64,000 bases of DNA from the sequence record OR515477.1, one strand, 5' to 3'. The notes beneath the pieces are model-generated. The model saw only the letters and a list, made by a program, of their open reading frames with translations. It searched no databases and was not told where the DNA came from. Position numbers and translations under genes: made by a program. The stretch comes from Escherichia phage Es2. Of the stretch, positions 22,170 through 35,850 are shown in pieces; position 1 is the stretch's first letter, and each line of letters begins with the position of its first letter.

Positions 22170-22198
22170 TTGCTAAACGTTTCAAATTCTCGTATAAT
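22170..22198 (+). promoter_or_regulatory. early-type sigma70 promoter
   Basis: AAAAATTCATTTGCTA, 17 bp, TATAAT, then TTCATAAATTGAT. Confidence 0.65.
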
Positions 22199-22236: not shown

Positions 22237-22752
22237 ATGGCTAAGCAGAAAAACGCAAAAACTCAAGCAGCTCCGGCAGTTAAAACTTTCCCGCAGACCG
22301 AGGCTAATCGCAAAGCTCGTCTGGAACGTCACCTGCGTAAGCATCCTACCGATGCTCAGGCTGCGCAAGCACTGAATAATCCGGCTCCGATTCGTAAGAA
22401 GCCTAAAGCTAAAAATGCCGCCCGTAAATCCTACAAAATGGTTATGTATGTAGAAAATTACGGCCACAAATCTGTCCCAGTTTCCCTGAGCTTCAACGCT
22501 GGGGCTGAATTGTTCCCTCGTAATGGTATGTCTATGAAAGACTATGAGAAGGCAGTTAACCAGAAGCGTAAACCAACAGCAGATGTATTGCGTGATACTC
22601 GTGGACAGTTTGGTTCTGTTAAGCCAAATATCTTTGGCGTAGAGTATAGTAAAGATAATGTTCGTGCTCTGTGTTACGGTGTAGGCATTAAGTTCACGGG
22701 TGATTCTGCTCGTAAATCTGCTAAACCAGCGCGCAAGCGTAAAGCGAAGTAA
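22237..22752 (+). CDS. hypothetical basic protein (possible nucleic-acid binding)
   Basis: 171 aa, Lys/Arg-rich, host-like codon bias; terminator 22762-22784 follows. Confidence 0.5.
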   Translation: MAKQKNAKTQAAPAVKTFPQTEANRKARLERHLRKHPTDAQAAQALNNPAPIRKKPKAKNAARKSYKMVMYVENYGHKSVPVSLSFNAGAELFPRNGMSMKDYEKAVNQKRKPTADVLRDTRGQFGSVKPNIFGVEYSKDNVRALCYGVGIKFTGDSARKSAKPARKRKAK

Positions 22753-22761: not shown

Positions 22762-22784
22762 AGGGGCGAAAGCCCCTCTTATTT
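22762..22784 (+). terminator. rho-independent terminator
   Basis: AGGGGC-GAAA-GCCCCT followed by CTTATTT. Confidence 0.65.
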
Positions 22785-22793: not shown

Positions 22794-23030
22794 ATGCGTA
22801 ATTTTGTAGCAAAGAATGACTTTAATCGTGCTAGCACTCATAAGTCCGCTAGAGATTATACACGACTTTCTAGTCATGAGGTAATGGATACCTGTTATGA
22901 AGAGCTGGAAGGTAGCTGGAATGAGTGGCCCGACTTCTCTATGGAAGAGAACTGGGATGTCAGTGAGGATATGCTTCCTGGTTTTAAAGACCCCAAGAAG
23001 TGGGAGTCTATTAAAGAGACAGCTCTTTAA
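22794..23030 (+). CDS. hypothetical acidic protein
   Basis: 78 aa ORF. Confidence 0.45.
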   Translation: MRNFVAKNDFNRASTHKSARDYTRLSSHEVMDTCYEELEGSWNEWPDFSMEENWDVSEDMLPGFKDPKKWESIKETAL

Positions 23031-23058
23031 TAGTTTTCTACACAATAAAGGATAAGTT

Positions 23059-23760
23059 ATGAAAGTAAAACCATTTGGTATGCTAGATATTGAATCTCTG
23101 GGAACTCCAGGAGATTGTGGTACTACTCATATCGCAATGCCTTCTTTCGCTTTTGTGGCTATGCATGGAATTGATAAAGACCCTGATCTAATATTTGTTA
23201 CTTTGGATGTGCAGGATCAGCTTAATTCTGGTGCCAAAGTTACAGCATCTACTCTAGCATTCTGGATGGATCAAGCTAAACATAGCCCGTCTGCTATCCA
23301 CATTATGGAAGCCATGAAGGAACGTAATCCAAAACTGATTGTCTTCCAAAATGGTAAACATCATTGCACTAATAAATTAGGCTCAAACTATGCTGCCTTC
23401 TCTATGGCTCAAAATATTATGGAGTTGGCTCTAGGTGAAAATGCTTTGTATTATGGCAACGGTCCAGAGTTTGATATGACTATCTACTCTGCAAACACGT
23501 TCCATGCTGGAACCAATGAAGAGGTAGTTCCGTGGAAATTCTGGAATTTGGGTAATGTTCGATCTCTTCGTAACCTCTGGATGCAAGCTGGATACAGTTA
23601 TAAAGCTCTAGAGACCGAAGGTATTAGCTGGGCAATAGCTAAAATGGAGAAGATGGACACCATTCGTTATGGGATCTATCCGGTTAAGCACGACCCTGCA
23701 TTTGATGCCTTAGTTGAAAGCTATTGTGTTGCAGCTATGATCGAAAAAATGAAAATTTGA
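23059..23760 (+). CDS. putative DEDDh-type 3'-5' exonuclease-like protein
   Basis: N-terminal MLDIESLG (D-x-E) and C-terminal KHDPAFDA (H-x-A-x-x-DA) resemble DnaQ/RNase T exonuclease motifs. Confidence 0.4.
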   Translation: MKVKPFGMLDIESLGTPGDCGTTHIAMPSFAFVAMHGIDKDPDLIFVTLDVQDQLNSGAKVTASTLAFWMDQAKHSPSAIHIMEAMKERNPKLIVFQNGKHHCTNKLGSNYAAFSMAQNIMELALGENALYYGNGPEFDMTIYSANTFHAGTNEEVVPWKFWNLGNVRSLRNLWMQAGYSYKALETEGISWAIAKMEKMDTIRYGIYPVKHDPAFDALVESYCVAAMIEKMKI

Positions 23761-23761: not shown

Positions 23762-23790
23762 TTGCTTCCGGCTCCAAAATTCTGTATAAT
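23762..23790 (+). promoter_or_regulatory. early-type sigma70 promoter
   Basis: TTGCTT, 17 bp, TGTATAAT. Confidence 0.6.
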
Positions 23791-24066: not shown

Positions 24067-24705
24067 ATGACTACTCGTATTTCTAAAACTCGCGCTCTGG
24101 CAACTATCAAATCTCTGGAAGCTAAAATCCGTAAAGCTACTGAACAACATCTTCTGATTGCTGTTGGTGAAGGTAAGGATAAAAACCAGGTTGTAGTTGG
24201 CGCTGCAATCGAAGTAGCTGATCTGTCTACTCGTATTAAGACTGATTTCCAATCTCTGCTGGATATGATGTCTCGGCGTGATCGTATTAAATCTGCTCTG
24301 ATTAAGAGCAATGCAGAAACAATCGTTGAGATCGGTTCTCGTAAGATGACTGTTGCGGAAGCAATTGAAGCTAAGCGTTCTATGGAACTTAAAGCTCAAC
24401 TGCTGGCTAACATGCGTAAGCAGTTCCATGCCGCTACGGTTAAGTTTAATACGCAGAAAGCACAGTTTGATGCTAAATACGAGCGTTTGCAGGACAGCAT
24501 GGCTACCCGCGATAAGAAAACTTCCGAAGATGAAGTTAAAATGCAGCTCAACCTGCTGGAACTCAAGAATACTCCATTCTTGATTGATCCGCTGGAACTG
24601 GAGAAGCTGATTAAGCAGCATGACGAGGAATACCAGGACTTTGCAACAAATGTTGACTTTGTTCTGTCCGAGTCTAACGCCTCTACCTTTATTGAAGTAG
24701 AGTAA
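24067..24705 (+). CDS. hypothetical protein
   Basis: 212 aa ORF, strong codon bias, coiled-coil-like. Confidence 0.55.
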   Translation: MTTRISKTRALATIKSLEAKIRKATEQHLLIAVGEGKDKNQVVVGAAIEVADLSTRIKTDFQSLLDMMSRRDRIKSALIKSNAETIVEIGSRKMTVAEAIEAKRSMELKAQLLANMRKQFHAATVKFNTQKAQFDAKYERLQDSMATRDKKTSEDEVKMQLNLLELKNTPFLIDPLELEKLIKQHDEEYQDFATNVDFVLSESNASTFIEVE

Positions 24706-25147: not shown

Positions 25148-25465
25148 ATGACTTTTCATATTTTGATTGATGATGTGCGTAATCTTCACGGAATGGACAT
25201 TATCATTCGAACCCCAGAAGCCGCTGTAGAGTTTCTGAATAAAACTGATACCACAGGCCATTTCGTTTATATGGATAATGACTTGGCTGTAGATGGTATG
25301 GAAGGTTATCAAATTCTTCGTTTACTCTTAGAATTTGGGCAGAGACCAAAGAAAGTGGTACTAGTAACCTCGAACCCAGTAGCTAAGCAAAATATGCGTA
25401 ATGATTTGCTTGACTTAGGGTATAAAGAAAATCCCAATCGTGTTGAATATGATTGGCAGGAGTAA
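25148..25465 (+). CDS. hypothetical protein
   Basis: 105 aa ORF after promoter 25089-25117. Confidence 0.5.
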   Translation: MTFHILIDDVRNLHGMDIIIRTPEAAVEFLNKTDTTGHFVYMDNDLAVDGMEGYQILRLLLEFGQRPKKVVLVTSNPVAKQNMRNDLLDLGYKENPNRVEYDWQE

Positions 25466-25470
25466 AAAGA

Positions 25471-25920
25471 ATGAAGGCAGCTTTGCTTTTAGTAGCTGCC
25501 CTTACCTTCAGCTTTAGTAGTCAGGCATCGCACGATGCAAAAGAAATAGATTGCATTGCTAAAAATATCTATTTCGAAAGTCGTGGTGAGGGCATAAAGG
25601 GAATGACGGCGATTGCACATGTTACTAAAAACCGTGTAAACTCCGGTAAATTCCCAGATTCCTACTGTAAAGTAGTATATCAGTCTAACCAGTTCTCTTG
25701 GGTATCTAAGAGACCAAAAGTTGATAAAACTGATGAGGCTTGGCAAACCGCTAAGAATTTAGCTAGAGTGATATACTACGTTGATTTACCACAAGATCCT
25801 ACACATGGAGCATTATACTTCCATAGTGGTAAAGATAAACCTTACTGGACAAAGAAATTTAAGAAAACAACTAAGATTAAGGGGCATACATTCTATAAAC
25901 CTGTTGTCACTAAAACTTAA
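25471..25920 (+). CDS. secreted SleB-like cell-wall hydrolase
   Basis: Signal peptide MKAALLLVAALTFSFSSQA then CIAKNIYFESRGE...AHVTKNRV...YCKVVYQSNQFSW (cell-wall hydrolase family signature). Confidence 0.6.
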   Translation: MKAALLLVAALTFSFSSQASHDAKEIDCIAKNIYFESRGEGIKGMTAIAHVTKNRVNSGKFPDSYCKVVYQSNQFSWVSKRPKVDKTDEAWQTAKNLARVIYYVDLPQDPTHGALYFHSGKDKPYWTKKFKKTTKIKGHTFYKPVVTKT

Positions 25921-27427: not shown

Positions 27428-27499
27428 CGGGGTGTAGTCTAAGGGAGAGGCAGGAGTCTTCTAAATTCCTTTATGCAGGTTCGAATCCTGTCACCTCGG
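27428..27499 (+). tRNA. tRNA-Arg (anticodon TCT)
   Basis: Acceptor CGGGGTG/CACCTCG, anticodon loop CTTCTAA, T-arm GCAGG-TTCGAAT-CCTGT, CCA encoded. Confidence 0.7.
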
Positions 27500-27536
27500 C
27501 CAATTTTATTAACTGTAGCTAAAACAAAGGAAATAT

Positions 27537-28484
27537 ATGTTTAATACTAAAAATATGAAAGAACTGACTTCTGAGCAAAAAGTAATTCGCACTATTAAAC
27601 GTTGGGGTATTGGTGCTGTAGTTGGTTTAGCAGGTTTAGTTCTAGCTCTTAACTCCTATACCGTTGTTCAAGACGGTACTGTTAAGACCCAGACTTTCTT
27701 GGGTAAAGTTGATCCTAACCCTGTATTGCCGGGCTTTCATATTGTAAATCCTTTTGCTTCTTTTGATACTTTTAGTACTAAAGATATTGCTCTGAAATTA
27801 GATAAACTTCAGGTTCCTAGTCAGGATAAGTTTAAATCCACTGTTGACCTGACTGTTATGTTGCAGTTTGATGGTTCTAAAGCACCGATTAACCGTATTA
27901 ATGCAGGTACTCAGGATCAAGCATTAGACAAATATGTAACTGAAAAATTACTGTCTACTATTCGTGAGTTTGGTAAGTCTGTACCTAAAGCACAAGATTT
28001 ATTTGATGCTAAAATTCAGGCTCAATTGCAAACTGCAATTCAACAGGAAGTTGAAGAGTATGCACGCCCATATGGTTACACAGTTAAGCAGGTGTTTCTT
28101 CAGGATATTACTTTGCCACCGGTAATCATGGAACAGGTACAGAATACCAAAGTTCGTGAAGAACAGGTTAATGCTGCTAAAGCTGAATTAGCTCGTGTTG
28201 AACAGGAAGCACAGCAAAAAGTTAAACAAGCAGAAGCAGATCGTGAAGCTCGCAACAACCAAGCTATTGCTAACGAACGTGACGCAGATGCTAAGCTGTA
28301 TGCAGCTAAGAAAGAAGCTGAAGCTAACGCCGCATTGCAACGTACCATTACTCCTGAGATGATTCACTGGAAGCAACTGGAAGTTGAAATGATTCGTGCT
28401 CAGAAGTATCAGGGTGGTGTACCGCAGACTGTGGTTGGCACTGGCTATGATGGCCAAATGATTATGGATATGCGTAATAAATAA
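27537..28484 (+). CDS. SPFH/band-7 (prohibitin/HflKC-like) membrane protein
   Basis: N-terminal TM (WGIGAVVGLAGLVLAL), SPFH-like core, Ala/Gln/Glu-rich coiled-coil C-terminus. Confidence 0.6.
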   Translation: MFNTKNMKELTSEQKVIRTIKRWGIGAVVGLAGLVLALNSYTVVQDGTVKTQTFLGKVDPNPVLPGFHIVNPFASFDTFSTKDIALKLDKLQVPSQDKFKSTVDLTVMLQFDGSKAPINRINAGTQDQALDKYVTEKLLSTIREFGKSVPKAQDLFDAKIQAQLQTAIQQEVEEYARPYGYTVKQVFLQDITLPPVIMEQVQNTKVREEQVNAAKAELARVEQEAQQKVKQAEADREARNNQAIANERDADAKLYAAKKEAEANAALQRTITPEMIHWKQLEVEMIRAQKYQGGVPQTVVGTGYDGQMIMDMRNK

Positions 28485-28509
28485 TACCCGCATGTAACAT
28501 CTGAAGTAA

Positions 28510-28545
28510 GCCCTGCGTTTCCTGGAGAGCGCAGGGCTTTTCTAT
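28510..28545 (+). terminator. rho-independent terminator
   Basis: GCCCTGCG...CGCAGGGC hairpin followed by TTTTC. Confidence 0.6.
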
Positions 28546-28580
28546 ATAATGTATTTGTAAATCTAACTAGGAGATCAAAT

Positions 28581-29099
28581 ATGAATGTTGATGAGCTAAC
28601 ACAGCACCTCTTATCTAGAGGATTTGATACAGATAAATATCATTGCTGGTTAAGTCCAGCAGGGTGGCTAACAGTCCCGTTGTATGATTTCTCTGGGATG
28701 TTGAGGGGCTATCAAACTTATAATCCTTCTGCTCCAAAAGGTCATGGTAAGTGTCCCTTTGAAGCTAAATATTTTACCTATTCTACTACCCAGTGTGTAT
28801 GGGGATTAGAAACTCTCAATGGAGATGAAAAAGTAGTATTGGTCGCTGAATCTGTATTTAAGGCAGTTGCGTTACATAATGCTGGTTATCCAGCCCTAGC
28901 AATGTTGGGTTCTTCTCCAGGAAAAGCGTTATTAAAGCAACTGAAATTATTACCTTTTAAATTGGTAGCTGTCGGGGATAACGATCCTGCGGGTGAAAAA
29001 TTTGCTAGAAAATTAAACGGCTTTGTTTCTCCTGTAGATGTGGATGAGATGTCTACCGAAAACTTGAAAAATTTTCTTGCTATGAAGCTAAATTTCTAA
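28581..29099 (+). CDS. hypothetical protein
   Basis: 172 aa ORF with AGGAG RBS. Confidence 0.5.
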   Translation: MNVDELTQHLLSRGFDTDKYHCWLSPAGWLTVPLYDFSGMLRGYQTYNPSAPKGHGKCPFEAKYFTYSTTQCVWGLETLNGDEKVVLVAESVFKAVALHNAGYPALAMLGSSPGKALLKQLKLLPFKLVAVGDNDPAGEKFARKLNGFVSPVDVDEMSTENLKNFLAMKLNF

Positions 29100-29120
29100 T
29101 ATAATATATCTTATAAATTC

Positions 29121-29206
29121 GGAAGAATAGCATAATGGTATTGCAGCAGATTGCTAATCTGTCGGTTTGAAATATAGCCTTGTGGGTTCGATTCCCACTT
29201 CTTCCG
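29121..29206 (+). tRNA. tRNA-Ser (anticodon GCT)
   Basis: Acceptor GGAAGAA/TTCTTCC, anticodon loop TTGCTAA, long variable arm, T-arm GTGGG-TTCGATT-CCCAC, CCA encoded. Confidence 0.75.
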
Positions 29207-29215
29207 CCAGATTTT

Positions 29216-29290
29216 GGTTCTCAAGCTCATATGGTATGAGCACCCGGCTCATAACCGGAAGGTACGTAGGTTCGAATCCTCGGGGAGCCA
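29216..29290 (+). tRNA. tRNA-Met/Ile2 (anticodon CAT)
   Basis: Acceptor GGTTCTC/GGGAGCC, anticodon loop CTCATAA, TTCGAAT T-loop (T-stem imperfect), CCA encoded. Confidence 0.6.
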
Positions 29291-29312
29291 CCAACTTATT
29301 TAGGAGCTACAA

Positions 29313-29501
29313 GTGGAACTATACATAGTTTATGTTGTGTTTATTCAAGATAGAGAATATCCGGATGAGTATAAACAAGGGTATAGGTTAGCCAGGGCTA
29401 CCTCTGAAGCACAAGCTATGGATAAAGTAGCTGAGTATATGATTATGGTAGAAAATGTACACTATATCGACTCACTTGAAGCCTCAAAAGTAATTGAATA
29501 A
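29313..29501 (+). CDS. hypothetical protein
   Basis: 62 aa ORF. Confidence 0.4.
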   Translation: MELYIVYVVFIQDREYPDEYKQGYRLARATSEAQAMDKVAEYMIMVENVHYIDSLEASKVIE

Positions 29502-29510
29502 GGAGACTGT

Positions 29511-29696
29511 ATGTCCAAGTTTCAAGAACTCAAGCAAGAGCTAGAAGAATGTGCCTGCCCTGAGTGTAGGGGAATTGGTGAAAGTTCTGATGCAGAAGCA
29601 GGAGATACTTTTTGCAATATCTGGGTTTGCCCAAATTGCAATGGTACAGGTATTAATCCTAACTGTGGTATTTCTCTAGATATTGAAAGGGGATAA
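29511..29696 (+). CDS. small zinc-ribbon protein
   Basis: CACPECRG...CPNCNG paired CxxC motifs, AAGGAG RBS. Confidence 0.5.
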   Translation: MSKFQELKQELEECACPECRGIGESSDAEAGDTFCNIWVCPNCNGTGINPNCGISLDIERG

Positions 29697-29797
29697 TATC
29701 TGTGAAACTAAAAGATTATTATATTGGTTGGTTTGTGGGACTAGTAGTAGGATTTTCACTAGGCTATAATATGTATCAACTAATAAACTGATTACAC

Positions 29798-29871
29798 GGG
29801 GGTGTAATCGAATTGGCATAGGTACTGGACTTAAAATTCAGGTTTTGTGGGTTCGAATCCCACCACCCCTA
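29798..29871 (+). tRNA. tRNA with anticodon TAA (Leu-decoding; class I architecture)
   Basis: Acceptor GGGGGTG/CACCCCT, anticodon loop CTTAAAA, short variable arm, T-arm GTGGG-TTCGAAT-CCCAC, CCA encoded. Confidence 0.55.
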
Positions 29872-30049
29872 CCAAATTAAGGAAATAAGATGTATAGACA
29901 TCCACCTCCGCCAACACGTCGTTCTAGAGAAGTTATCCTCATGGAATTGACTAAAAACTTCAAGGCAACTCTTGAAGATAGAGATTTAGGCACGGATGAA
30001 GACATTGATTTTATTTGTAGACTATTAAAGATGAAATTGGAGAAACAAC

Positions 30050-30256
30050 ATGGCTAATCCTGAAATTACCGCACAACGTTTCATGCTTAAAGGCATGATT
30101 GCTGAAGCAGGTATGACTCAAGAGGTTGCAGACTTTCATAAGCAATTTCTTGATATTATAACTCTAGCTAAGGAGACTGGAGAAAAAGAGCACGCAGCAG
30201 CAATTATGGCTATATCTCTTATTAGTCTAGACTTGGCTGAAGAATCTGGAGTTTAG
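30050..30256 (+). CDS. hypothetical protein
   Basis: 68 aa ORF. Confidence 0.45.
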   Translation: MANPEITAQRFMLKGMIAEAGMTQEVADFHKQFLDIITLAKETGEKEHAAAIMAISLISLDLAEESGV

Positions 30257-30285
30257 CTCCTCCAAACAGAATTTTTAAAAATGTA

Positions 30286-30315
30286 CTTGCCTTTTGCTTT
30301 AAATTTCTGATATAA
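30286..30315 (+). promoter_or_regulatory. early-type sigma70 promoter
   Basis: TTGCCT, 18 bp, TATAAT. Confidence 0.5.
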
Positions 30316-30346
30316 TAGTTATATAAATTAATGAAGGAGTTAACAA

Positions 30347-30622
30347 ATGCAAAATCGTGTTATAGCAACTGGTATTGAAAGTGCAATCTGTAAATCCTGG
30401 GAAGGCTGGGAAGGTGAGATTGAATGGCTTTATTTCTACGATGTAGAACTTCTGCCGGAAGTTAAAGCTAAATGTGTTGAAGCTGGCATGGCTCCAGATG
30501 CAAAAGCTGATATTGATATTTCAATGTCTGAACTTAAAGGCCGTGTAATTACTGTTAGTGATGAGGGCGAAGAAGTTTTCGAACTTCCGTTCTCCTTAAC
30601 TGTCACTCCTAAGTTCGACTAA
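30347..30622 (+). CDS. hypothetical acidic protein
   Basis: 91 aa ORF, AAGGAG RBS after promoter 30286-30315. Confidence 0.5.
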   Translation: MQNRVIATGIESAICKSWEGWEGEIEWLYFYDVELLPEVKAKCVEAGMAPDAKADIDISMSELKGRVITVSDEGEEVFELPFSLTVTPKFD

Positions 30623-30658
30623 CTAATACAGCACTGAGCAAGTTCTTTAAAATTTGAC

Positions 30659-30687
30659 TTGCTCAGTGCCTTAAAACTTGGTATAAT
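30659..30687 (+). promoter_or_regulatory. early-type sigma70 promoter overlapping a 12 bp-stem hairpin
   Basis: TTGCTC, 17 bp, TGGTATAAT; -35 lies inside the inverted repeat GCACTGAGCAAG...CTTGCTCAGTGC (30631-30669). Confidence 0.55.
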
Positions 30688-30705
30688 AGTTATCTAATTT
30701 GGAAA

Positions 30706-30812
30706 CATATTTGAATGAGAAGTAACTAAGCGAGTTGCTTTGAGGGGTAAAGTCAGGATAGCCTGAAATATTCCACCTTGAGTTTAACCGACTTACTTTT
30801 CATTCAAATATG
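30706..30812 (+). ncRNA. long hairpin element (20 bp stem enclosing 67 nt) at start of tRNA-Tyr transcript
   Basis: CATATTTGAATGAGAAGTAA (30706-30725) pairs with TTACTTTTCATTCAAATATG (30793-30812); lies between promoter -10 (30682-30687) and tRNA-Tyr. Confidence 0.4.
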
Positions 30813-30890
30813 GGGGGGTTGGCTCAGAGGCGACGGCGCCTGGCTGTAGACCGGGTATACCACGCGGAGGTTCGAGTCCTCCATCCCCCA
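30813..30890 (+). tRNA. tRNA-Tyr (anticodon GTA)
   Basis: Acceptor GGGGGGT/ATCCCCC, anticodon loop CTGTAGA, extended variable region, T-arm GGAGG-TTCGAGT-CCTCC, CCA encoded. Confidence 0.6.
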
Positions 30891-30911
30891 CCAAATTACT
30901 AAGGAAATAAT

Positions 30912-31457
30912 ATGCACAATAAGTTAATAAATGAACTTCAAAAAAGACAAATAATAACAAAAACTAAGGAGTTTGATATAACTCCGGATTTAATAGTTGA
31001 ATGTTCGAAAGTTTACTTAGAGTTAAGTAACACAAAGGCTAAGAAAGTCTCTTTAGGAGATCTTAGATATAATGTTAAACTATTGTGCCTATCCTTAATT
31101 AAATTTAAGCAAGAAAATAAACTTCTCATAAAAGAAGGTTTCATATATTTTATAGCAAATAAGGCGTGGCCCAATTATTTTAAGATTGGTATGTCAGCTA
31201 ACCCAAAGAAACGTCTGGCTAACTATCAAACATATAGTCCTTTTAGGGATTATACAATGCTACACTGGTCTTTCTGGTTTGACAGAAAGGAAGGTGAAAA
31301 ATTTGTACATAGTCTCTACCAAGACAGAGATCATGAATGGGTTAGGCTGCCACAAAGAAAACTAAATAAAATATTTGAGCAAATAAATAAACTTTCTGGC
31401 CTAGAACACTTGGTACAGAAAGTTAATAGAGAAATAGTTAATGCACCTATCGTCTAA
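30912..31457 (+). CDS. GIY-YIG-like (T5orf172-type) domain protein
   Basis: FIYFIANKAWPNYFKIGMSANPKKRLANYQTYSP resembles the GIY-YIG/T5orf172 fold; 3' end overlaps tRNA-Glu. Confidence 0.5.
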   Translation: MHNKLINELQKRQIITKTKEFDITPDLIVECSKVYLELSNTKAKKVSLGDLRYNVKLLCLSLIKFKQENKLLIKEGFIYFIANKAWPNYFKIGMSANPKKRLANYQTYSPFRDYTMLHWSFWFDRKEGEKFVHSLYQDRDHEWVRLPQRKLNKIFEQINKLSGLEHLVQKVNREIVNAPIV

Positions 31458-31514
31458 TGGTTAGGACATCAGGATTTCAATCTGAGAATCGGAGTTCAAT
31501 TCTCCGTGGGTGTA
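31443..31514 (+). tRNA. tRNA-Glu (anticodon TTC)
   Basis: Acceptor GCACCTA/TGGGTGT, anticodon loop ATTTCAA, T-arm CGGAG-TTCAATT-CTCCG, CCA encoded. Confidence 0.7.
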
Positions 31515-31523
31515 CCAAATTCT

Positions 31524-31599
31524 GCATTCCTAGAGTGTTACTGGACAGCATGTCGGTCTCCAAAACCGTACGGTCTAGGTTCGAGTCCTAGTAGGTTTG
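31524..31599 (+). tRNA. tRNA-like, possible tRNA-Trp (anticodon CCA)
   Basis: Good T-arm CTAGG-TTCGAGT-CCTAG and anticodon loop CTCCAAA, but acceptor stem pairing is poor; ends approximate. Confidence 0.35.
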
Positions 31600-31608
31600 C
31601 CAAAATTT

Positions 31609-31680
31609 GCACCTTTAGCTGAGATGGATTAGCGCTTGCCTGAAGAGCTTGAGAGGTTCGTTCGATTCGAACAGGGTGCA
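31609..31680 (+). tRNA. tRNA, possible tRNA-Phe (anticodon GAA)
   Basis: Acceptor GCACCTT/AGGGTGC, T-arm GTTCG-TTCGATT-CGAAC, CCA encoded; anticodon stem weak (loop CTGAAGA). Confidence 0.5.
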
Positions 31681-31685
31681 CCAAT

Positions 31686-31973
31686 TTGAGGGAGCTGCTG
31701 ATGCATCCTGAAAACTTCTTTATTTACTGCGCTGATAAGTCGCTGAAACGTAGAATTAACAAAGTCTATCATTATAGTGCTAGTCAACAGCCTTATGTAT
31801 ACGCTTTTGACGGTGATCACATTCCACTAGAACAATTATCTTGTGATTACATGATATTGAAGAACTTTGATGAGACGAAGATCTCGAGCGTTCATAATCG
31901 ACAGAATCCATTGACGTGGAAATATAAGAAGAAAAAGAAAGGCATCAAATTCTTAAAAAATGTAGTTGCTTAG
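31686..31973 (+). CDS. hypothetical protein
   Basis: 95 aa ORF; a promoter overlaps its 3' end. Confidence 0.45.
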   Translation: MRELLMHPENFFIYCADKSLKRRINKVYHYSASQQPYVYAFDGDHIPLEQLSCDYMILKNFDETKISSVHNRQNPLTWKYKKKKKGIKFLKNVVA

Positions 31974-31994
31974 TTTCCAAAAGTTCTGTATAAT
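31966..31994 (+). promoter_or_regulatory. early-type sigma70 promoter
   Basis: TTGCTT, 17 bp, TGTATAAT. Confidence 0.6.
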
Positions 31995-32005
31995 AATTAC
32001 ATAAA

Positions 32006-32248
32006 TTGAACTGGAGAAGCAACATGACAGAACAAGAATTGAATGAACGTAAGCTGGTAATGCTTCGCTTACTAAATATTTTCTCTGGTATGGACGGTGG
32101 AATTGACTTTGTTCATCTACGTTCTTTCGTAGAAGAAGCTGAAGGCGAATCTATCACTAAAATCCTTAAACACATGGGATTACTTTTAGATGCTGCTAAT
32201 GTGGCTACTGAATATAAAATAGAAGATCTACCGGAGCGTGTTAAATGA
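32006..32248 (+). CDS. hypothetical protein
   Basis: 80 aa ORF after promoter 31966-31994. Confidence 0.5.
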   Translation: MNWRSNMTEQELNERKLVMLRLLNIFSGMDGGIDFVHLRSFVEEAEGESITKILKHMGLLLDAANVATEYKIEDLPERVK

Positions 32249-32436
32249 AACGATTAGTTAGATTTAAGTGTTGTGGTTCCGAGCACATTTTCACACATCT
32301 TCGTGAATTTAAAATGTGTGATTGTGGTAAATCAGGCTATGACTCAGGAGATGGGTTCTACACCCGTACTCTAGGGAACTTCAATGATCTAGAATTTGAA
32401 GATCTCGAAAAACAAGATAAACCGACCGTTGGCTGA
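32245..32436 (+). CDS. small Cys-rich protein
   Basis: 63 aa, CCGSEH...CDCG motif; 3' end overlaps tRNA-Cys. Confidence 0.45.
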   Translation: MKRLVRFKCCGSEHIFTHLREFKMCDCGKSGYDSGDGFYTRTLGNFNDLEFEDLEKQDKPTVG

Positions 32437-32495
32437 ATGGCTTAGGCGAAGGATTGCAAATCCTTTTTATGTGAGTTCAAATCTCATGCGGTCGT
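32423..32495 (+). tRNA. tRNA-Cys (anticodon GCA)
   Basis: Acceptor CGACCGT/GCGGTCG, anticodon stem-loop AAGGA-TTGCAAA-TCCTT, T-arm GTGAG-TTCAAAT-CTCAT, CCA encoded. Confidence 0.7.
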
Positions 32496-32501
32496 CCAAT
32501 T

Positions 32502-32640
32502 TGCTGAAAGAATTGTTAAATCAATTCAGGCACGCGTAGGAACACTGTCTCCGTAATTGAAAGATGAGGCACGGTTTGGAGAGGTATGCCGCTACACGCT
32601 ACGGTGCTAACTCCGTCTAGGTGAAAATCCTAGTCAGCAA
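32502..32640 (+). ncRNA. long tRNA-like element (~139 nt)
   Basis: 7 bp acceptor-like pairing TTGCTGA/TCAGCAA, D-arm-like hairpin GAATTG-TTAAAT-CAATTC, T-arm-like CTAGG-TGAAAAT-CCTAG; no ORF. Confidence 0.35.
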
Positions 32641-32650
32641 TATAAATTTA

Positions 32651-32730
32651 GGGTCGTTAGCCAAGCGGTTTGGCGGTGGACTGTTAATCCATGTCGAAAG
32701 ACAACGTAGGTTCGAATCCTACACGGCCCG
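32651..32730 (+). tRNA. tRNA-Asn (anticodon GTT)
   Basis: Acceptor GGGTCGT/ACGGCCC, anticodon loop CTGTTAA, extended variable region, T-arm GTAGG-TTCGAAT-CCTAC, CCA encoded. Confidence 0.65.
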
Positions 32731-32835
32731 CCAAATTCTGTGTAGAGTTAAGTAAACCGGTAGCCAACCAGCTATCATTGCTGATATCGAATTCAGCCAC
32801 AGATACCATTTTCATTAATAACTGAGGAAACAAGC

Positions 32836-33021
32836 ATGTCCAAGAATGTAATTGCACAGCTAGAAGTTCATCGTGATAACACAGCTAATAACATTAAGTG
32901 CCGACAAAAAGATATTGAAGCTCGAAAGGCTGATCTTTTAATGAGTATTCGAGAGCTTAATGTACGGAAAGAGTTTCTTAAAGAACTTAATGCAGCTATT
33001 GAAAAACTCAAAGTTGAGTAA
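32836..33021 (+). CDS. hypothetical protein
   Basis: 61 aa ORF, coiled-coil-like. Confidence 0.4.
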   Translation: MSKNVIAQLEVHRDNTANNIKCRQKDIEARKADLLMSIRELNVRKEFLKELNAAIEKLKVE

Positions 33022-33030
33022 ATAAATTAT

Positions 33031-33104
33031 GCGACCGGGGCTGGCTTGGTAATGGTACTCCCCTGTCACGGGAGGGAATGTGGGTTCAAATCCCATCGGT
33101 CGCG
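33031..33104 (+). tRNA. tRNA-Asp (anticodon GTC)
   Basis: Acceptor GCGACCG/CGGTCGC, anticodon stem-loop CTCCC-CTGTCAC-GGGAG, T-arm GTGGG-TTCAAAT-CCCAT, CCA encoded. Confidence 0.75.
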
Positions 33105-33132
33105 CCAAATTAATTTAGTATGAGAATATACT

Positions 33133-33480
33133 ATGCGTAATGCTAAAGAAGAGTTGTTACTTGCCTTAAAAAATACTAATTCTGAAGTTAAATGTATTAA
33201 AATAGAATTCGGGTATTATGGGGATAAAAAAGTTTGGGTATTACCTTTAGGTTATACAGAAAAAGATATTGAGGATTTTCTTAATAATCTAGACTTTAAG
33301 TACGATTCTGGGTATGGTGGGCAATTACTTTATGGTAATGTATGGTTTGCCGACGGAACTTGGCTAGAACGTGGGGAATACGATGGTGCTGAGTGGTGGG
33401 AGTACAAAGCTACCCCGGAAATTCCAGAGGAATGCCGAACAATTAATGGTGAAGTAGATAATACTTTACTATTAAACTAA
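33133..33480 (+). CDS. hypothetical protein
   Basis: 115 aa ORF. Confidence 0.5.
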   Translation: MRNAKEELLLALKNTNSEVKCIKIEFGYYGDKKVWVLPLGYTEKDIEDFLNNLDFKYDSGYGGQLLYGNVWFADGTWLERGEYDGAEWWEYKATPEIPEECRTINGEVDNTLLLN

Positions 33481-33602
33481 AAGAATTTCAGTGCAGAACA
33501 CGGAGCTAGCAATTCGGAAGTGCTGACTCATGATAAGCTGCCTATGTACTTGCTAAGCGGTCGTGTCCAAGACTCGGACTCTTGCACTGAAAACAATCAA
33601 AC

Positions 33603-33723
33603 ATTCTAGCGTGGTTGATGGGGAAACCAGCTTGGCTAGGGCAGAAGCTCGTTCGATTCGAGTGAAAGAATGGTTCTCGTAAGTCCGCACAAGTGATAGC
33701 AGGTTCGAGTCCTGTCTAGAATG
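33603..33723 (+). ncRNA. long tRNA-like element (~121 nt)
   Basis: Perfect 7 bp acceptor pairing ATTCTAG/CTAGAAT, T-arm GCAGG-TTCGAGT-CCTGT, internal second T-arm-like GCTCG-TTCGATT-CGAGT; too long for a canonical tRNA. Confidence 0.4.
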
Positions 33724-33731
33724 ACACTATA

Positions 33732-33859
33732 AAGTTTACTTATTATGTAGGTTCCGATAGATCGGCGGGTCTATTCTGGCATTTAAGAGAAGTCTCGCAA
33801 ACTTCTTTGTCAGCCGTGGGGTTGGTAGCCTCCAGGTGGCCTACACAATAAGTAAATTT
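33732..33859 (+). ncRNA. long hairpin element (20 bp stem enclosing ~88 nt)
   Basis: AAGTTTACTTATTATGTAGG (33732-33751) pairs with CCTACACAATAAGTAAATTT (33840-33859); sub-hairpins inside; no ORF. Confidence 0.4.
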
Positions 33860-33872
33860 ATTAAAAATTCAT

Positions 33873-33901
33873 TTGCTATTTTTCTTAATTATCTGTATAA
33901 T
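33873..33901 (+). promoter_or_regulatory. early-type sigma70 promoter
   Basis: AAAAATTCATTTGCTA, 17 bp, TGTATAAT. Confidence 0.6.
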
Positions 33902-33933
33902 ATATTTTATAAAGTGAAGAGAAGGAAAGCAAA

Positions 33934-34092
33934 ATGAAACACAAGATAGCCCAAGTTTTTATGGCATTATGGTGTATGCCAATAGCTATAACAGCATTTA
34001 ATCTAGATACTTTTACTATAGAAGAAAAATGTATCGGATTAGTTAGCGGCTTTAGTATGCTTGGCTTATCTTTGTTGTGGTTGAAGAAATAA
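33934..34092 (+). CDS. small hydrophobic protein
   Basis: 52 aa ORF MKHKIAQVFMALWCMPIAITAF... after promoter 33873-33901; below track cutoff. Confidence 0.4.
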   Translation: MKHKIAQVFMALWCMPIAITAFNLDTFTIEEKCIGLVSGFSMLGLSLLWLKK

Positions 34093-34096
34093 TATT

Positions 34097-34171
34097 CTCC
34101 GTGTAGCTCAGTTTGGCCAGAGCGTTTCGTTTGGGGCGATAGGGTCGGGGGTTCAAATCCTCCCACGGAGA
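34097..34171 (+). tRNA. tRNA-Pro (anticodon TGG)
   Basis: Acceptor CTCCGTG/CACGGAG, D-arm GCTC..GAGC, anticodon loop TTTGGGG, T-arm GGGGG-TTCAAAT-CCTCC, CCA encoded. Confidence 0.7.
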
Positions 34172-34180
34172 CCAAACAAT

Positions 34181-34255
34181 TGCGGGTTAGATCTCTGGTA
34201 GAGATCGCTAGTCTCATAAGCTAGAAAGAGGTAGGTTCGATTCCTGCACCCGCTT
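34181..34255 (+). tRNA. tRNA-Met/Ile2 (anticodon CAT)
   Basis: Acceptor TGCGGGT/ACCCGCT (1-72 mismatch), anticodon stem-loop CTAGT-CTCATAA-GCTAG, T-arm GTAGG-TTCGATT-CCTGC, CCA encoded. Confidence 0.65.
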
Positions 34256-34278
34256 CCATTTTAATAGAGGATTTCGAA

Positions 34279-34446
34279 ATGAAAGTATTTCGATTAGTAG
34301 TAAGTGACAAACGGTTAGGTAAGAATACATCAAAATCCCTACTCGCTCATTACGGTAAAAATTGGGATGAAGTAATGGCAGAGTTTAGTACTAATCACCC
34401 TTACTTGAAAGTTCACTCTATTAAAGAAGTATATAATGGTTACTAA
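34279..34446 (+). CDS. hypothetical small protein
   Basis: 55 aa ORF with GAGGA RBS between tRNAs; below track cutoff. Confidence 0.4.
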   Translation: MKVFRLVVSDKRLGKNTSKSLLAHYGKNWDEVMAEFSTNHPYLKVHSIKEVYNGY

Positions 34447-34447
34447 T

Positions 34448-34523
34448 AGATCGCTAGCTCAATAGGTTTAGTAGCATCCGACTTTTAATCGGAAGGTTCT
34501 GGGTTCGAGTCCCAGGCGATCTA
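34448..34523 (+). tRNA. tRNA-Lys (anticodon TTT)
   Basis: Acceptor AGATCGC/GCGATCT, anticodon stem-loop TCCGA-CTTTTAA-TCGGA, T-arm CTGGG-TTCGAGT-CCCAG, CCA encoded. Confidence 0.75.
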
Positions 34524-34530
34524 CCAAATT

Positions 34531-34601
34531 GCTCGGTTAGTTTAATGGGAGAACCCCGTCTTTACACGGCGGTTGAGATAGTTCAATTCTATCACCGAGT
34601 A
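34531..34601 (+). tRNA. tRNA-Val (anticodon TAC)
   Basis: Acceptor GCTCGGT/ACCGAGT, anticodon loop TTTACAC, T-arm GATAG-TTCAATT-CTATC, CCA encoded. Confidence 0.7.
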
Positions 34602-34623
34602 CCAATTAACTCAAAATAAGGAA

Positions 34624-34983
34624 TTGCAAATGCAATTATCAAGCAAGATTCAAGGTTATTTCGGTCATGTAACAATGGAGTTCGCTATCTCTAAAGGTTG
34701 GGACTTCGAACAAGATTTAGCTGAGTTCTACAAAGATATTGATCTGAACGTACCGTACATGGGACTTTCTACTGGTCAGGAGATCACAGAAGCCGATGTA
34801 TTCAAGGCAAGTCAAGGTGAGGTAACACCTAGTTTTGCCGAGTTCTGGTTAGGCATTACGTTAAAAGAAGATGCACCAGATAGTGGTGTACTAATGTCTA
34901 GTATGCACTCTGGAAGTTCCGATTACCTTTTCATTAGCGATGTTAAGGAAATACAAGAAGTCTGCAAAAATGTACTTGCTTGA
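34624..34983 (+). CDS. hypothetical protein
   Basis: 119 aa ORF with AAGGA RBS. Confidence 0.5.
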   Translation: MQMQLSSKIQGYFGHVTMEFAISKGWDFEQDLAEFYKDIDLNVPYMGLSTGQEITEADVFKASQGEVTPSFAEFWLGITLKEDAPDSGVLMSSMHSGSSDYLFISDVKEIQEVCKNVLA

Positions 34984-35004
34984 TGCTTAATTTCTTGTTA
35001 TAAT
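34976..35004 (+). promoter_or_regulatory. early-type sigma70 promoter
   Basis: TTGCTT, 17 bp, TATAAT; followed by hairpin GATGAGGA-GAAA-TCCTCATC. Confidence 0.55.
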
Positions 35005-35242
35005 ATTTATATAAATTGATGAGGAGAAATCCTCATCATAGTTCACTAAGGTATTAGCTCGACCTAGGACTGGCTGCCAAAAAGCACGATCCCTACGATT
35101 CGGGAAAAGTTCTAGATTGGTCCACTAGATTCAGCGGCAACTGAATAGTGTATTGGGTTTGCGAGATGACGTAGTTCCTTCCGCTCTAAGCGAAGGTGCT
35201 GTAGTTACGCCGAGCTAATAGCCTTAGTAAACTAAAGAATTT

Positions 35243-35318
35243 GGGGAATGGGTCTGCATGGAGTGGACACCTCGCTTGCACCGAGGACATCAGAACGGTT
35301 CGATTCCGTTATTCTCCA
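35243..35318 (+). tRNA. tRNA-Ala (anticodon TGC)
   Basis: Acceptor GGGGAAT/ATTCTCC, anticodon stem-loop CCTCG-CTTGCAC-CGAGG, T-arm AACGG-TTCGATT-CCGTT, CCA encoded. Confidence 0.7.
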
Positions 35319-35326
35319 CCAAATAC

Positions 35327-35400
35327 GCGTGATTGATGGAATGGGCATACATACCGTCCTTAGAAGTCGGGTTTTGAGGGTTCGAATCCCTTGTCACGCA
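35327..35400 (+). tRNA. tRNA with anticodon TAG (Leu-decoding; class I architecture)
   Basis: Acceptor GCGTGAT/GTCACGC, anticodon loop CTTAGAA, short variable arm, T-arm GAGGG-TTCGAAT-CCCTT, CCA encoded. Confidence 0.55.
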
Positions 35401-35515
35401 CCAAATTTGATGGTCAGAGTAAATTAAACCTACTATCTCGGTTGAGCTGTTTTAATGGGTTCGAATCCCAGCGGGGCGTAACTGCCTGGTGTGATAGAGG
35501 CATCATCTTATTATT

Positions 35516-35603
35516 GGAAGAGCAAATCGAATTGGCGACGAAAACCGCTTGGAAAGTGGCTGACTGGTAAAACGGCTTGAGAGTTCAAATCTCTCCTCTT
35601 CCG
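35516..35603 (+). tRNA. tRNA-Ser (anticodon GGA)
   Basis: Acceptor GGAAGAG/CTCTTCC, anticodon loop TTGGAAA, 18 nt variable arm, T-arm GAGAG-TTCAAAT-CTCTC, CCA encoded. Confidence 0.7.
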
Positions 35604-35618
35604 CCAAACAATTTATAT

Positions 35619-35710
35619 GGTAGGTCAATCCAATGGCTGGCGCTGGACTCCGACTTGAAATCGGTTGATCGTAGTGATACGGTGTAAGGGTTCGATCCCC
35701 TTACCTACCT
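35619..35710 (+). tRNA. tRNA-Ser (anticodon TGA)
   Basis: Acceptor GGTAGGT/ACCTACC, anticodon loop CTTGAAA, 20 nt variable arm, T-arm AAGGG-TTCGATC-CCCTT, CCA encoded. Confidence 0.7.
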
Positions 35711-35716
35711 CCAAAT

Positions 35717-35850
35717 CTTGAAGTATGCCGGAATCGGTAGACGGGGCTGCCTAAAAGGTTTATAGGGAACATCCACTCCCTGCAACATACCTCATAAAGC
35801 GGCTGAGATAAATGGTCTATCTCGTGAAGGTTCAAGTCCTTCTGCTTCTT
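35717..35850 (+). ncRNA. long tRNA-like element (~134 nt)
   Basis: Acceptor-like pairing TGAAGTA/TGCTTCT (6 of 7), T-arm GAAGG-TTCAAGT-CCTTC, internal D-arm-like hairpins; no CCA, no ORF. Confidence 0.35.

What the first reader, a model, noticed from the sequence alone, without database searches (positions are those of the whole stretch)
23059..23760. Possible DEDDh exonuclease among early genes
The N-terminal MLDIESLG and C-terminal KHDPAFDA motifs resemble the Exo I and Exo III motifs of DnaQ/RNase T-type 3'-5' exonucleases. A free-standing exonuclease could act in host DNA degradation or RNA processing.
Basis: inference. Interest (0 to 1): 0.35.

Follow-up and report, generated by a model that had tools for sequence, protein, structure and literature searches.

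The report
T5-type DexA-like 3'-5' exonuclease gene
The flagged gene is the T5.087 gene of a T5-like phage, a DEDDh 3'-5' exonuclease of the same family as phage T4 DexA and M. tuberculosis Rv2179c; it is ordinary and already catalogued, though many records mislabel it "metallopeptidase".

Summary
Window 23059..23760 (+) is a 233-aa ORF whose MLDIESLG and KHDPAFDA stretches are the Exo I and Exo III motifs of a DEDDh exonuclease. The central Exo II motif (YGNGPEFDMTIY) is also present. D10, E12, D139, H211 and D216 are invariant in 28 relatives down to 36% identity.

The protein passes Pfam's threshold for PF16473 (Rv2179c-like 3'-5' exoribonuclease) and hits PHROG 255 "exonuclease" at 9e-53. 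The AlphaFold model is confident (pLDDT 90.7), and its best matches among solved structures are RNase T and 3'hExo. A bridging alignment puts its five catalytic residues on those of T4 DexA.

The window is a Tequintavirus early region. The gene is the ortholog of T5.087 (94% identical), which RefSeq already names "exonuclease". The common "metallopeptidase" label probably comes from a chance zinc-carboxypeptidase pattern hit (HAGTNEEVVPW); no peptidase family matches.

The in-vivo substrate is not settled. DexA-like trimming of ssDNA or oligonucleotides is favoured. RNase T-like trimming of the phage's 23 CCA-encoding tRNAs is the main rival.

One new detail: the small upstream gene (T5.088-like) is fused in frame to the exonuclease in distant T5-like phages.

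The parts
23059..23760 (+). CDS of the 233-aa DEDDh 3'-5' exonuclease (T5.087 ortholog; 26 kDa, pI 5.9), stop codon included
   Evidence: ORF. PF16473 33.1 bits, above the cut-off of 27. PHROG 255 E 9e-53. 219/233 residues identical to T5.087. AF2 pLDDT 90.7, pTM 0.90.
23080..23109 (+). Exo I motif, residues 8-17 MLDIESLGTP (catalytic D10, E12)
   Evidence: D10, E12, G15 and P17 are invariant in A1. D10 and E12 align with DexA D7 and E9.
23449..23487 (+). Exo II motif, residues 131-143 YYGNGPEFDMTIY (catalytic D139)
   Evidence: G133, N134, G135, F138, D139 and I142 are invariant. D139 aligns with DexA D119.
23530..23547 (+). Family-specific PWKFWN motif, residues 158-163 (P158 and W162 invariant)
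   Evidence: Aligns with T4 DexA 148-PCKFWN-153. PMC12153337 reports DexA W152 as contributed to the neighbouring subunit's active site.
23683..23712 (+). Exo III motif, residues 209-218 VKHDPAFDAL (H211-x4-D216, the 'h' type)
   Evidence: H211, D216, A217 and L218 are invariant. H211 and D216 align with DexA H186 and D191.
23503..23535 (+). HAGTNEEVVPW, residues 149-159: chance match to a zinc-carboxypeptidase signature pattern and the likely source of the 'metallopeptidase' label
   Evidence: Regex match in the window protein and in T5.087. H149 is conserved in only 14 of 28 relatives and the pattern is present in 7 of 28. The T5.087 note cites IPR000834. The pattern itself was recalled from memory.
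23047..23052 (+). Shine-Dalgarno AAAGGA, 6 nt upstream of the ATG
   Evidence: Read directly from the sequence. The same AAAGGA-N6-ATG is kept inside the fused ORF of L003.
23000..23041 (+). Stable RNA hairpin spanning the stop codon of the upstream gene, followed by a U-rich tract; a likely partial terminator or attenuator ahead of the exonuclease gene
   Evidence: MFE -19.5 kcal/mol, z -3.77, 0 of 200 shuffles fold as well. Terminator-like hit. Annotated as a TransTerm terminator at the same place in AKFV33.
22794..23030 (+). Upstream 78-aa gene (T5.088 ortholog): basic N-terminus MRNFVAKNDFNRA (weak DUF7230 match) and very acidic C-terminal part. Fused to the exonuclease in some relatives, so probably a functional partner
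   Evidence: DUF7230 E 2.8e-4, below the cut-off. (fusions P0015, P0020, P0021, P0022, P0027). (three independent contigs). (the PHROG 255 profile covers both parts). pI values.
22237..22752 (+). First gene of the unit: 171-aa lysine/arginine-rich DUF7022 protein (T5.089 ortholog), kept directly upstream in distant T5-like contigs
   Evidence: PF22887 E 4.4e-76. Synteny in L003-L005. The AF2 model was too poor to interpret.
22170..22198 (+). Promoter-like site TTGCTA-17-TATAAT, the probable start of the DUF7022 / T5.088-like / exonuclease unit (counterpart of T5 promoter P-H 207)
   Evidence: T5 annotation. AKFV33 annotation. No T5 consensus promoter lies between here and 23059.
23762..23790 (+). 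Exact T5 early-promoter consensus directly after the exonuclease stop codon; it starts the next unit and so marks the end of this one
   Evidence: 14 exact matches in the window against 0.09 expected. T5 and AKFV33 annotate a promoter at the same place.

Best explanation
The gene encodes an active, stand-alone DEDDh 3'-5' exonuclease of the Rv2179c-like/DexA family (Pfam PF16473). It is the ortholog of phage T5 gene T5.087.

Mechanism, inferred from the established chemistry of the DEDDh superfamily: D10, E12, D139 and D216 hold two Mg2+ ions, H211 activates the attacking water, and nucleoside 5'-monophosphates are removed one at a time from a free single-stranded 3'-OH end. It probably works as a homodimer in which the invariant PWKFWN tryptophan (W162) reaches into the partner's active site, as reported for DexA.

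Expression: it is the last gene of an early transcription unit (DUF7022, T5.088-like, exonuclease). It sits behind two hairpins, so output is probably modest and depends on read-through.

Most likely role, inferred at about 45-50% of the probability: a DexA-like DNA function, namely trimming 3' single-stranded DNA ends and degrading oligodeoxynucleotides to mononucleotides during early infection. That would cover clean-up of host DNA fragments and processing of ends made at breaks, for example by the many HNH homing endonucleases of T5-like phages.

Shown: gene, family, catalytic residues, fold, synteny. Inferred: activity, oligomeric state, substrate, physiological role.
For: Family: PF16473 33.1 bits, above gathering score 27. 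PHROG 255 'exonuclease' E 9e-53. T4 DexA belongs to the same Pfam family (79.9 bits). hhalign of the family profile against DexA gives E 8.3e-5 over 135 columns, sharing Exo I, ST[IL]xFW, Exo II and P[WC]KFWN.

Catalytic set: D10, E12, D139, H211 and D216 are invariant in 28 sequences down to 36% identity. A bridging alignment places them on DexA D7, E9, D119, H186 and D191. PMC12153337 lists D7, D119, H186 and D191 as catalytic.

Fold: AF2 pLDDT 90.7, pTM 0.90. The top solved-structure matches are E. coli RNase T (E 1.4e-4) and then 3'hExo, all DEDDh enzymes. Matches among viral predicted structures are phage DexA, Rv2179c-like and DnaQ-like exonucleases.

Context: it lies directly downstream of nrdA, nrdB, frd, thy and rnh, the nucleotide and replication block, in this window and in T5, NR01, AKFV33 and distant metagenomic T5-like contigs.

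DNA role: DexA, the only phage member with genetics and biochemistry, is a 3'-5' DNA exonuclease used for host-DNA scavenging and for intron homing after homing-endonuclease cuts (PMC12153337). T5-like genomes carry many HNH homing endonuclease genes close to this locus.
Against: No assay exists for T5.087 or any close relative; nothing was found in the literature searches.

The relationship to DexA is remote: 17% identity, hhalign probability 60.6%. The founding member of the family, Rv2179c, is described as an exoribonuclease, and the best structural matches (RNase T, 3'hExo) are RNA-processing enzymes. DNA as the physiological substrate is therefore not established.

The Pfam alignment covers only profile positions 4-148 of 177; Exo III is assigned from alignments, not from the Pfam match. 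TM-scores to RNase T are modest (0.45-0.58) because of clade-specific insertions.

T5 destroys host DNA with pre-early functions and excretes the products (PMC10644984). That weakens a T4-style nucleotide-salvage role.
Confidence: 0.88

Rival explanations
1. Same enzyme, RNA substrate. It would act as an RNase T-like or oligoribonuclease-like 3'-5' exoribonuclease that trims the short 3' trailers of the phage's own tRNA precursors back to the encoded CCA, and/or degrades short RNA fragments such as RNase H products.
For: The Pfam family is named for the exoribonuclease Rv2179c. Rv2179c is described as a structural homologue of RNase T with 3' exonuclease activity on single-stranded overhangs of dsRNA (PMC10534295 citing Abendroth 2014). 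The best solved-structure match is RNase T itself. The gene lies about 3.7 kb upstream of, and on the same strand as, a cluster of 23 tRNA genes. All 23 encode a genomic 3' CCA followed by short A/T-rich trailers, some only 6-8 nt before the next tRNA. This is the kind of precursor that RNase T-type enzymes finish exonucleolytically in E. coli (established knowledge). RNase H is encoded about 1.3 kb upstream.
Against: T4 DexA, the only characterised phage member, acts on DNA. The host's own RNase T and RNase PH remain available. Proximity to the tRNA cluster is weak evidence in a genome where everything in this region is early and co-oriented. RNase T also digests ssDNA, so structural similarity to it does not indicate sugar specificity.
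Confidence: 0.3
2. Counter-defence nuclease. The exonuclease, with its T5.088-like partner, would destroy a host immune nucleic acid such as retron msDNA, linear or nicked signalling oligonucleotides, or guide RNA/DNA 3' ends.
For: Most T5 early genes without a known role are suspected to act in host take-over or anti-immunity (PMC10644984). The DexA family has been drawn into phage-host conflict on both sides (PMC12153337). The fusion to a small domain that is basic at one end and acidic at the other hints at a targeting or regulatory partner.
Against: No hit to any PADLOC model. No known anti-defence family matches. The gene sits in a conserved nucleotide-metabolism and replication neighbourhood rather than a variable accessory island, and is conserved across Demerecviridae genera.
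Confidence: 0.07
3. It is a metallopeptidase, as hundreds of GenBank records label it.
For: The label 'putative metallopeptidase' appears on most orthologs. The T5.087 note cites IPR000834. Residues 149-159, HAGTNEEVVPW, fit a zinc-carboxypeptidase signature pattern (pattern recalled from memory).
Against: No peptidase family appears in Pfam even at E <= 1. H149 is conserved in only 14 of 28 relatives and the pattern is present in 7 of 28. The fold and the invariant residues are those of a DEDDh nuclease. RefSeq and PHROGs already call it an exonuclease.
Confidence: 0.01
4. It is a catalytically dead DEDDh-fold protein that only binds nucleic-acid 3' ends.
For: There is no biochemical evidence of activity. 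The clade carries large insertions relative to canonical members of 170-200 aa.
Against: All five catalytic residues are invariant across the clade, which is the signature of retained catalysis.
Confidence: 0.03

Closest known systems
Phage T5 gene T5.087 product (YP_006915.1) and its orthologs in Tequintavirus/Epseptimavirus
   Same: Orthologous. 219 of 233 residues are identical. Same length, same position between T5.088 and the promoter of T5.086, same flanking genes. 97-99% identical proteins occur in AKFV33, SPC35, fp01 and others.
   Different: Nothing of substance; only strain-level substitutions. None of these proteins has been characterised experimentally as far as the searched literature shows.
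Phage T4 DexA (exonuclease A; PDB 8KEL/8KEN)
   Same: Same Pfam family PF16473 and similar size (227 vs 233 aa). Identical DEDDh catalytic set in alignable positions. Shared family motifs ST[IL]xFW/WW and P[WC]KFWN. Both are stand-alone early phage genes.
   Different: Only about 17% identity and hhalign probability 60.6%. The T5 clade has its own insertions (about residues 76-110 and 170-205) and lacks the DexA C-terminal tail. T5 DNA carries no 5hmC, so DexA's reported 5hmC discrimination and temperature-driven tetramer switch (PMC12153337) need not apply. DexA D169 has no aligned counterpart.
Mycobacterium tuberculosis Rv2179c (founding member of PF16473)
   Same: The match to the family HMM is above Pfam's curated threshold. 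DEDDh chemistry and an RNase T-like fold.
   Different: Rv2179c is a cellular enzyme described as an exoribonuclease acting on 3' overhangs. A profile of the T5 clade does not reach any PDB sequence at E <= 1, so the relationship is remote. The clade is small: 12 representative clusters at E <= 1e-30, against 983 at E <= 1e-3.
E. coli RNase T and human 3'hExo (ERI1), classical DEDDh exonucleases
   Same: Best solved-structure matches to the model (E 1.4e-4 to 2e-2, probability 0.9-1.0). Same Exo I, II and III logic with the H-x4-D variant.
   Different: 10-13% identity and TM only 0.4-0.58. No Pfam PF00929 (RNase_T) match for the window protein. It is similar in fold and mechanism, not a member of that family.

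Membership tests
DEDDh (DnaQ-like) 3'-5' exonuclease superfamily | Exo I motif D-x-E | tested here: met
   D10-I-E12 within MLDIESLG. Both acidic residues are invariant in 28 relatives and in the 14-sequence bridging alignment.
DEDDh (DnaQ-like) 3'-5' exonuclease superfamily | Exo II motif with a conserved Asp (N-x2-3-F-D) | tested here: met
   N134-G-P-E-F138-D139. N134, G135, F138 and D139 are invariant.
DEDDh (DnaQ-like) 3'-5' exonuclease superfamily | Exo III motif H-x4-D (the 'h' subtype, not 'y') | tested here: met
   H211-D-P-A-F-D216. Both are invariant in A1 and align with DexA H186 and D191.
DEDDh (DnaQ-like) 3'-5' exonuclease superfamily | RNase H-like alpha/beta fold shared with RNase T, DNA polymerase III epsilon subunit and ERI1 | tested here: met
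   AF2 model pLDDT 90.7. Foldseek top PDB matches are RNase T and 3'hExo at probability 0.9-1.0, with moderate TM of 0.4-0.58.
DEDDh (DnaQ-like) 3'-5' exonuclease superfamily | Divalent-metal-dependent 3'-5' exonuclease activity | not testable with these tools
   Needs a nuclease assay with wild-type and D10A/H211A proteins.
Pfam PF16473 Rv2179c-like / T4 DexA family | Score above the family's curated gathering threshold | tested here: met
   33.1 bits against a cut-off of 27, E 5.9e-8, residues 8-180. 22 of the 27 relatives in alignment A1 carry a precomputed PF16473 hit.
Pfam PF16473 Rv2179c-like / T4 DexA family | Family-specific motifs shared with the characterised member DexA (ST[IL]xFW after Exo I; P[WC]KFWN and R after Exo II) | tested here: met
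   T65, F68, W69, P158, W162 and R168 are invariant. They align with DexA STIEWW, PCKFWN and R157-region.
Pfam PF16473 Rv2179c-like / T4 DexA family | Homodimer with residues contributed in trans to the active site | not testable with these tools
   Only a monomer model could be made, and no coordinates or multimer prediction were available. Inferred from DexA (PMC12153337).
Pfam PF16473 Rv2179c-like / T4 DexA family | Substrate class (ssDNA or oligodeoxynucleotides for DexA; RNA 3' overhangs for Rv2179c) | not testable with these tools
   Sequence and model do not discriminate sugar specificity.
Peptidase M14 / 'metallopeptidase' (the label on most database entries) | Match to a metallopeptidase family profile | tested here: not met
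   Pfam scan at E <= 1 returns only PF16473. NCBIfam returns nothing.
Peptidase M14 / 'metallopeptidase' (the label on most database entries) | Conserved zinc ligands (HxxE ... H) | tested here: not met
   H81 is conserved in 6 of 28, E84 in 6 of 28 and H149 in 14 of 28. The signature-2-like pattern is present in only 7 of 28 relatives.

The most novel reading that the evidence does not exclude
The exonuclease may be the catalytic end of a conserved three-gene early module (DUF7022, DUF7230-like T5.088, exonuclease) rather than a lone housekeeping nuclease. In this reading the small protein, basic at one end and acidic at the other and fused to the enzyme in some lineages, acts as a targeting or regulatory subunit. 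It would direct the nuclease to a specific substrate, for example the 3' trailers of the phage's 23 CCA-encoding tRNAs or a host immune nucleic acid. That would be a phage-encoded, partner-guided RNase T analogue.
Probability: 0.15. Interest if true: 0.5.

Novelty: already known. Interest (0 to 1): 0.15.

Why it matters
The practical value lies mainly in annotation. The same protein is labelled 'metallopeptidase' in hundreds of T5-like phage genomes, and a 2025 preprint even interpreted it as a protein-degradation function. The evidence here shows it is a DEDDh exonuclease and explains where the wrong label probably came from.

Biologically, T5.087 is an uncharacterised, conserved early enzyme of a model phage. 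Knowing that it belongs to the DexA/Rv2179c family and travels with two conserved partner genes gives a concrete knockout and biochemistry target. Such experiments bear on T5 DNA-end processing, homing and tRNA maturation. None of this would surprise a specialist.

Tried and rejected
1. Single-sequence phmmer against PDB sequences returned only spurious low-complexity matches to designed armadillo repeats, with no significant individual stretch. A profile of the clade found no PDB sequence at E <= 1. Sequence search alone therefore does not link the clade to a solved structure; the fold search did.

2. Foldseek against the PDB did not list T4 DexA (8KEL/8KEN) among its top 50, although DexA is in the PDB. 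I relied on hhalign and a bridging alignment instead.

3. NCBIfam and PADLOC gave no hits.

4. Literature searches for T5.087, for T5 with DexA, and for T5-like with metallopeptidase found no functional study. Abendroth 2014 (PMC3900960) is not held, so facts about Rv2179c are cited second-hand from PMC10534295.

5. The AF2 model of the DUF7022 neighbour was too poor to use (pLDDT 66, pTM 0.24), so I ran no fold search on it.

6. I looked for further copies of the MRNFVAK N-terminal motif in the window and found only the one at 22794.

7. The metallopeptidase reading was considered and rejected.

8. A separate promoter for the exonuclease gene was considered. No T5 consensus promoter lies between 22200 and 23059.

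Full report
**The object.** Window 23059..23760 (+) is an intact ORF of 233 codons with an ATG start and a TGA stop. A Shine-Dalgarno AAAGGA lies at 23047-23052, 6 nt before the ATG.

**Where the window comes from.** The 3 kb around the gene are 97.6-98.2% identical to Tequintavirus genomes such as TUMS_E3, IME178, AKFV33 and SP15. There are 444 matching phage records, nearly all from Salmonella or Escherichia T5-like phages. The gene order matches T5: nrdA, nrdB, frd, thy, rnh, T5.090, T5.089, T5.088, T5.087, T5.086 and onward to the tRNA cluster.
- The ORF is the ortholog of T5.087 (YP_006915.1), with 219 of 233 residues identical.
- The T5 early-promoter consensus TTGCTT-N17/18-TATAAT occurs 14 times in the window, against 0.09 expected by chance.
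- 'Among early genes' is therefore correct.

**Is it a DEDDh exonuclease?** Four independent lines of evidence say yes.
- **Profiles.** Pfam PF16473 (Rv2179c-like 3'-5' exoribonuclease domain) scores 33.1 bits, E 5.9e-8, above the curated cut-off of 27. It is the only Pfam family found at E <= 1. PHROG 255, 'exonuclease', scores E 9e-53.
- **Conservation.** In 28 relatives down to 36% identity, the invariant residues include D10 and E12 (Exo I), G133, N134, G135, F138 and D139 (Exo II, YGNGPEFDMTIY), and H211 and D216 (Exo III, H-x4-D).
- **Structure.** An AlphaFold2 model built on that alignment is confident (pLDDT 90.7, pTM 0.90). Its best matches among solved structures are E. coli RNase T (E 1.4e-4, probability 1.0, TM 0.45-0.58) and human 3'hExo, both DEDDh enzymes. 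Against predicted viral structures it matches phage proteins named DexA, Rv2179c-like, DnaQ-like or DEDDh exonucleases.
- **Link to a characterised phage enzyme.** T4 DexA belongs to the same Pfam family (79.9 bits). The clade profile aligns to DexA at E 8.3e-5 over 135 columns. A bridging alignment through intermediate sequences places D10, E12, D139, H211 and D216 on DexA D7, E9, D119, H186 and D191. The invariant W162 of PWKFWN falls on DexA W152. PMC12153337 lists D7, D119, H186 and D191 among the catalytic residues and has W152 acting from the other subunit.

**How the clade relates to the wider family.** A full HMMER scan of 1.84 billion representative proteins with the clade profile found 983 proteins at E <= 1e-3. 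Only 37 reached 1e-10 and only 12 reached 1e-30. Most of the weaker hits are 170-200 aa and match in two stretches. The T5.087 clade is thus a small, divergent branch with its own insertions. This explains the modest Pfam score and TM values and the failure of a profile search against PDB sequences.

**The 'metallopeptidase' label.** Most GenBank orthologs are called '(putative) metallopeptidase'. One 2025 preprint reads this as a protein-degradation function.
- The T5.087 record says 'identified by match to InterPro family IPR000834', which is the M14 carboxypeptidase entry (the identity of that entry is from my own knowledge).
- Residues 149-159, HAGTNEEVVPW, fit the short PROSITE zinc-carboxypeptidase signature-2 pattern as I recall it, in the window protein and in T5.087.
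- H149 is conserved in only 14 of 28 relatives, and the pattern holds in only 7 of 28.
- No peptidase profile matches.

The label is best explained as a chance pattern hit that spread by copying. RefSeq and PHROGs already use 'exonuclease'.

**Surroundings.** No promoter-like site lies directly upstream of the gene. The nearest is TTGCTA-17-TATAAT at 22170-22198, the counterpart of T5 promoter P-H 207. It is followed in order by:
- a DUF7022 gene at 22237..22752 (PF22887, E 4.4e-76);
- a GC-rich hairpin at 22762-22777;
- a 78-aa gene at 22794..23030, the T5.088 ortholog;
- a stable hairpin at 23000-23041 (-19.5 kcal/mol, z -3.8), annotated as a terminator in AKFV33;
- the exonuclease gene;
- an exact early promoter at 23762-23790, which starts the next unit.

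The exonuclease therefore appears to be the last gene of a three-gene unit and to be expressed by read-through.

**A fused partner.** The same three genes sit together in distant metagenomic T5-like contigs. In five relatives (P0015, P0020, P0021, P0022, P0027) the T5.088-like protein is fused in frame to the exonuclease. P0020 was seen on three independent contigs. The fusion junction keeps an internal AAAGGA-N6-ATG. The PHROG 255 profile spans both parts. The small protein has a basic N-terminal 30 residues (pI 10.3) and a strongly acidic remainder (pI 4.05). It matches DUF7230 only weakly, below Pfam's cut-off. This argues for a functional partnership whose nature is unknown. An AF2 model of the DUF7022 protein was too poor to use.

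**Mechanism and role.** The chemistry can be stated with confidence by homology: two-metal-ion hydrolysis from a free 3'-OH, with His211 as general base, releasing 5'-mononucleotides. The physiological substrate cannot be read from sequence.

I favour a DexA-like DNA role at about 45-50%. This means trimming 3' ssDNA tails and degrading oligodeoxynucleotides, including at breaks made by the many HNH homing endonucleases of these phages. The reasons are:
- DexA is the only characterised phage member and does exactly this (PMC12153337).
- The gene sits next to the nucleotide and replication block.

The main rival, at about 30%, is an RNA role.
- The family is named for the exoribonuclease Rv2179c, which acts on RNA 3' overhangs.
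- The closest solved fold is RNase T.
- The gene lies about 3.7 kb upstream of 23 co-oriented tRNA genes. All of them encode CCA followed by short A/T-rich trailers, the substrate class that RNase T-type enzymes finish.

A counter-defence role is possible but unsupported (no PADLOC hit; conserved core neighbourhood). Host-DNA destruction in T5 is a pre-early function whose products are excreted (PMC10644984). T4-style salvage is therefore less likely than clean-up or end-processing.

**Verdict.** The gene is an already catalogued DEDDh exonuclease of a model phage family, though it has not been characterised experimentally. Novelty is low. The useful by-products are the explanation of a widespread mis-annotation, the DUF7230-exonuclease fusion, and the three-gene module as leads for experiments.

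Noticed in passing
window 22794..23030 (+); L003 6001-7005: The 78-aa gene just upstream (T5.088 ortholog) has a basic N-terminus MRNFVAKNDFNRA and an acidic C-terminal part. It is fused in frame to the exonuclease in five distant relatives. P0020 was seen on three independent metagenomic contigs. The fusion junction keeps an internal AAAGGA-N6-ATG, so both a long and a short product may be made.
   Followed up: partly
window 23503..23535 (+): HAGTNEEVVPW fits a zinc-carboxypeptidase signature pattern (recalled from memory) in this protein and in T5.087, but is poorly conserved in relatives. It is the probable origin of the 'metallopeptidase' label carried by hundreds of T5-like phage records.
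   Followed up: yes
window 27428..37912 (+): There are 23 tRNA genes, all on the + strand. Every one has a genomically encoded 3' CCA followed by an A/T-rich trailer (mostly AAT or ATT). Several are separated from the next tRNA by only 4-8 nt.
   Followed up: partly
window 23000..23041 (+) and 22762..22777: Two hairpins lie inside the DUF7022 / T5.088-like / exonuclease unit. The second (-19.5 kcal/mol, z -3.8) spans the stop codon of the upstream gene and is annotated as a TransTerm terminator in AKFV33. It may attenuate expression of the exonuclease.
   Followed up: partly
window 22237..22752 (+): A lysine/arginine-rich 171-aa DUF7022 protein (T5.089 ortholog) is conserved directly upstream of the exonuclease module in distant T5-like contigs. 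Its AlphaFold model was poor (pLDDT 66, pTM 0.24), so no function could be proposed.
   Followed up: partly
window 24067..24705 (+): A 212-aa ORF is labelled 'tail fiber protein' in RefSeq and PHROG 1491, although it sits in the early region between the exonuclease and the cell-wall hydrolase. It has no significant Pfam hit. The label looks doubtful.
   Followed up: no
whole window, e.g. 21004, 21819, 23762, 25929 (+): There are 14 exact matches to the T5 early-promoter consensus TTGCTT-N17/18-TATAAT, against 0.09 expected by chance. They punctuate the early region into many short transcription units.
   Followed up: partly
window 25453..25920 (+): A 155-aa protein has a signal-peptide-like N-terminus. 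Its counterparts are annotated SleB-type cell-wall hydrolase or 'endolysin' (Hydrolase_2 in L003). It is encoded in the early region, two units downstream of the exonuclease.
   Followed up: no
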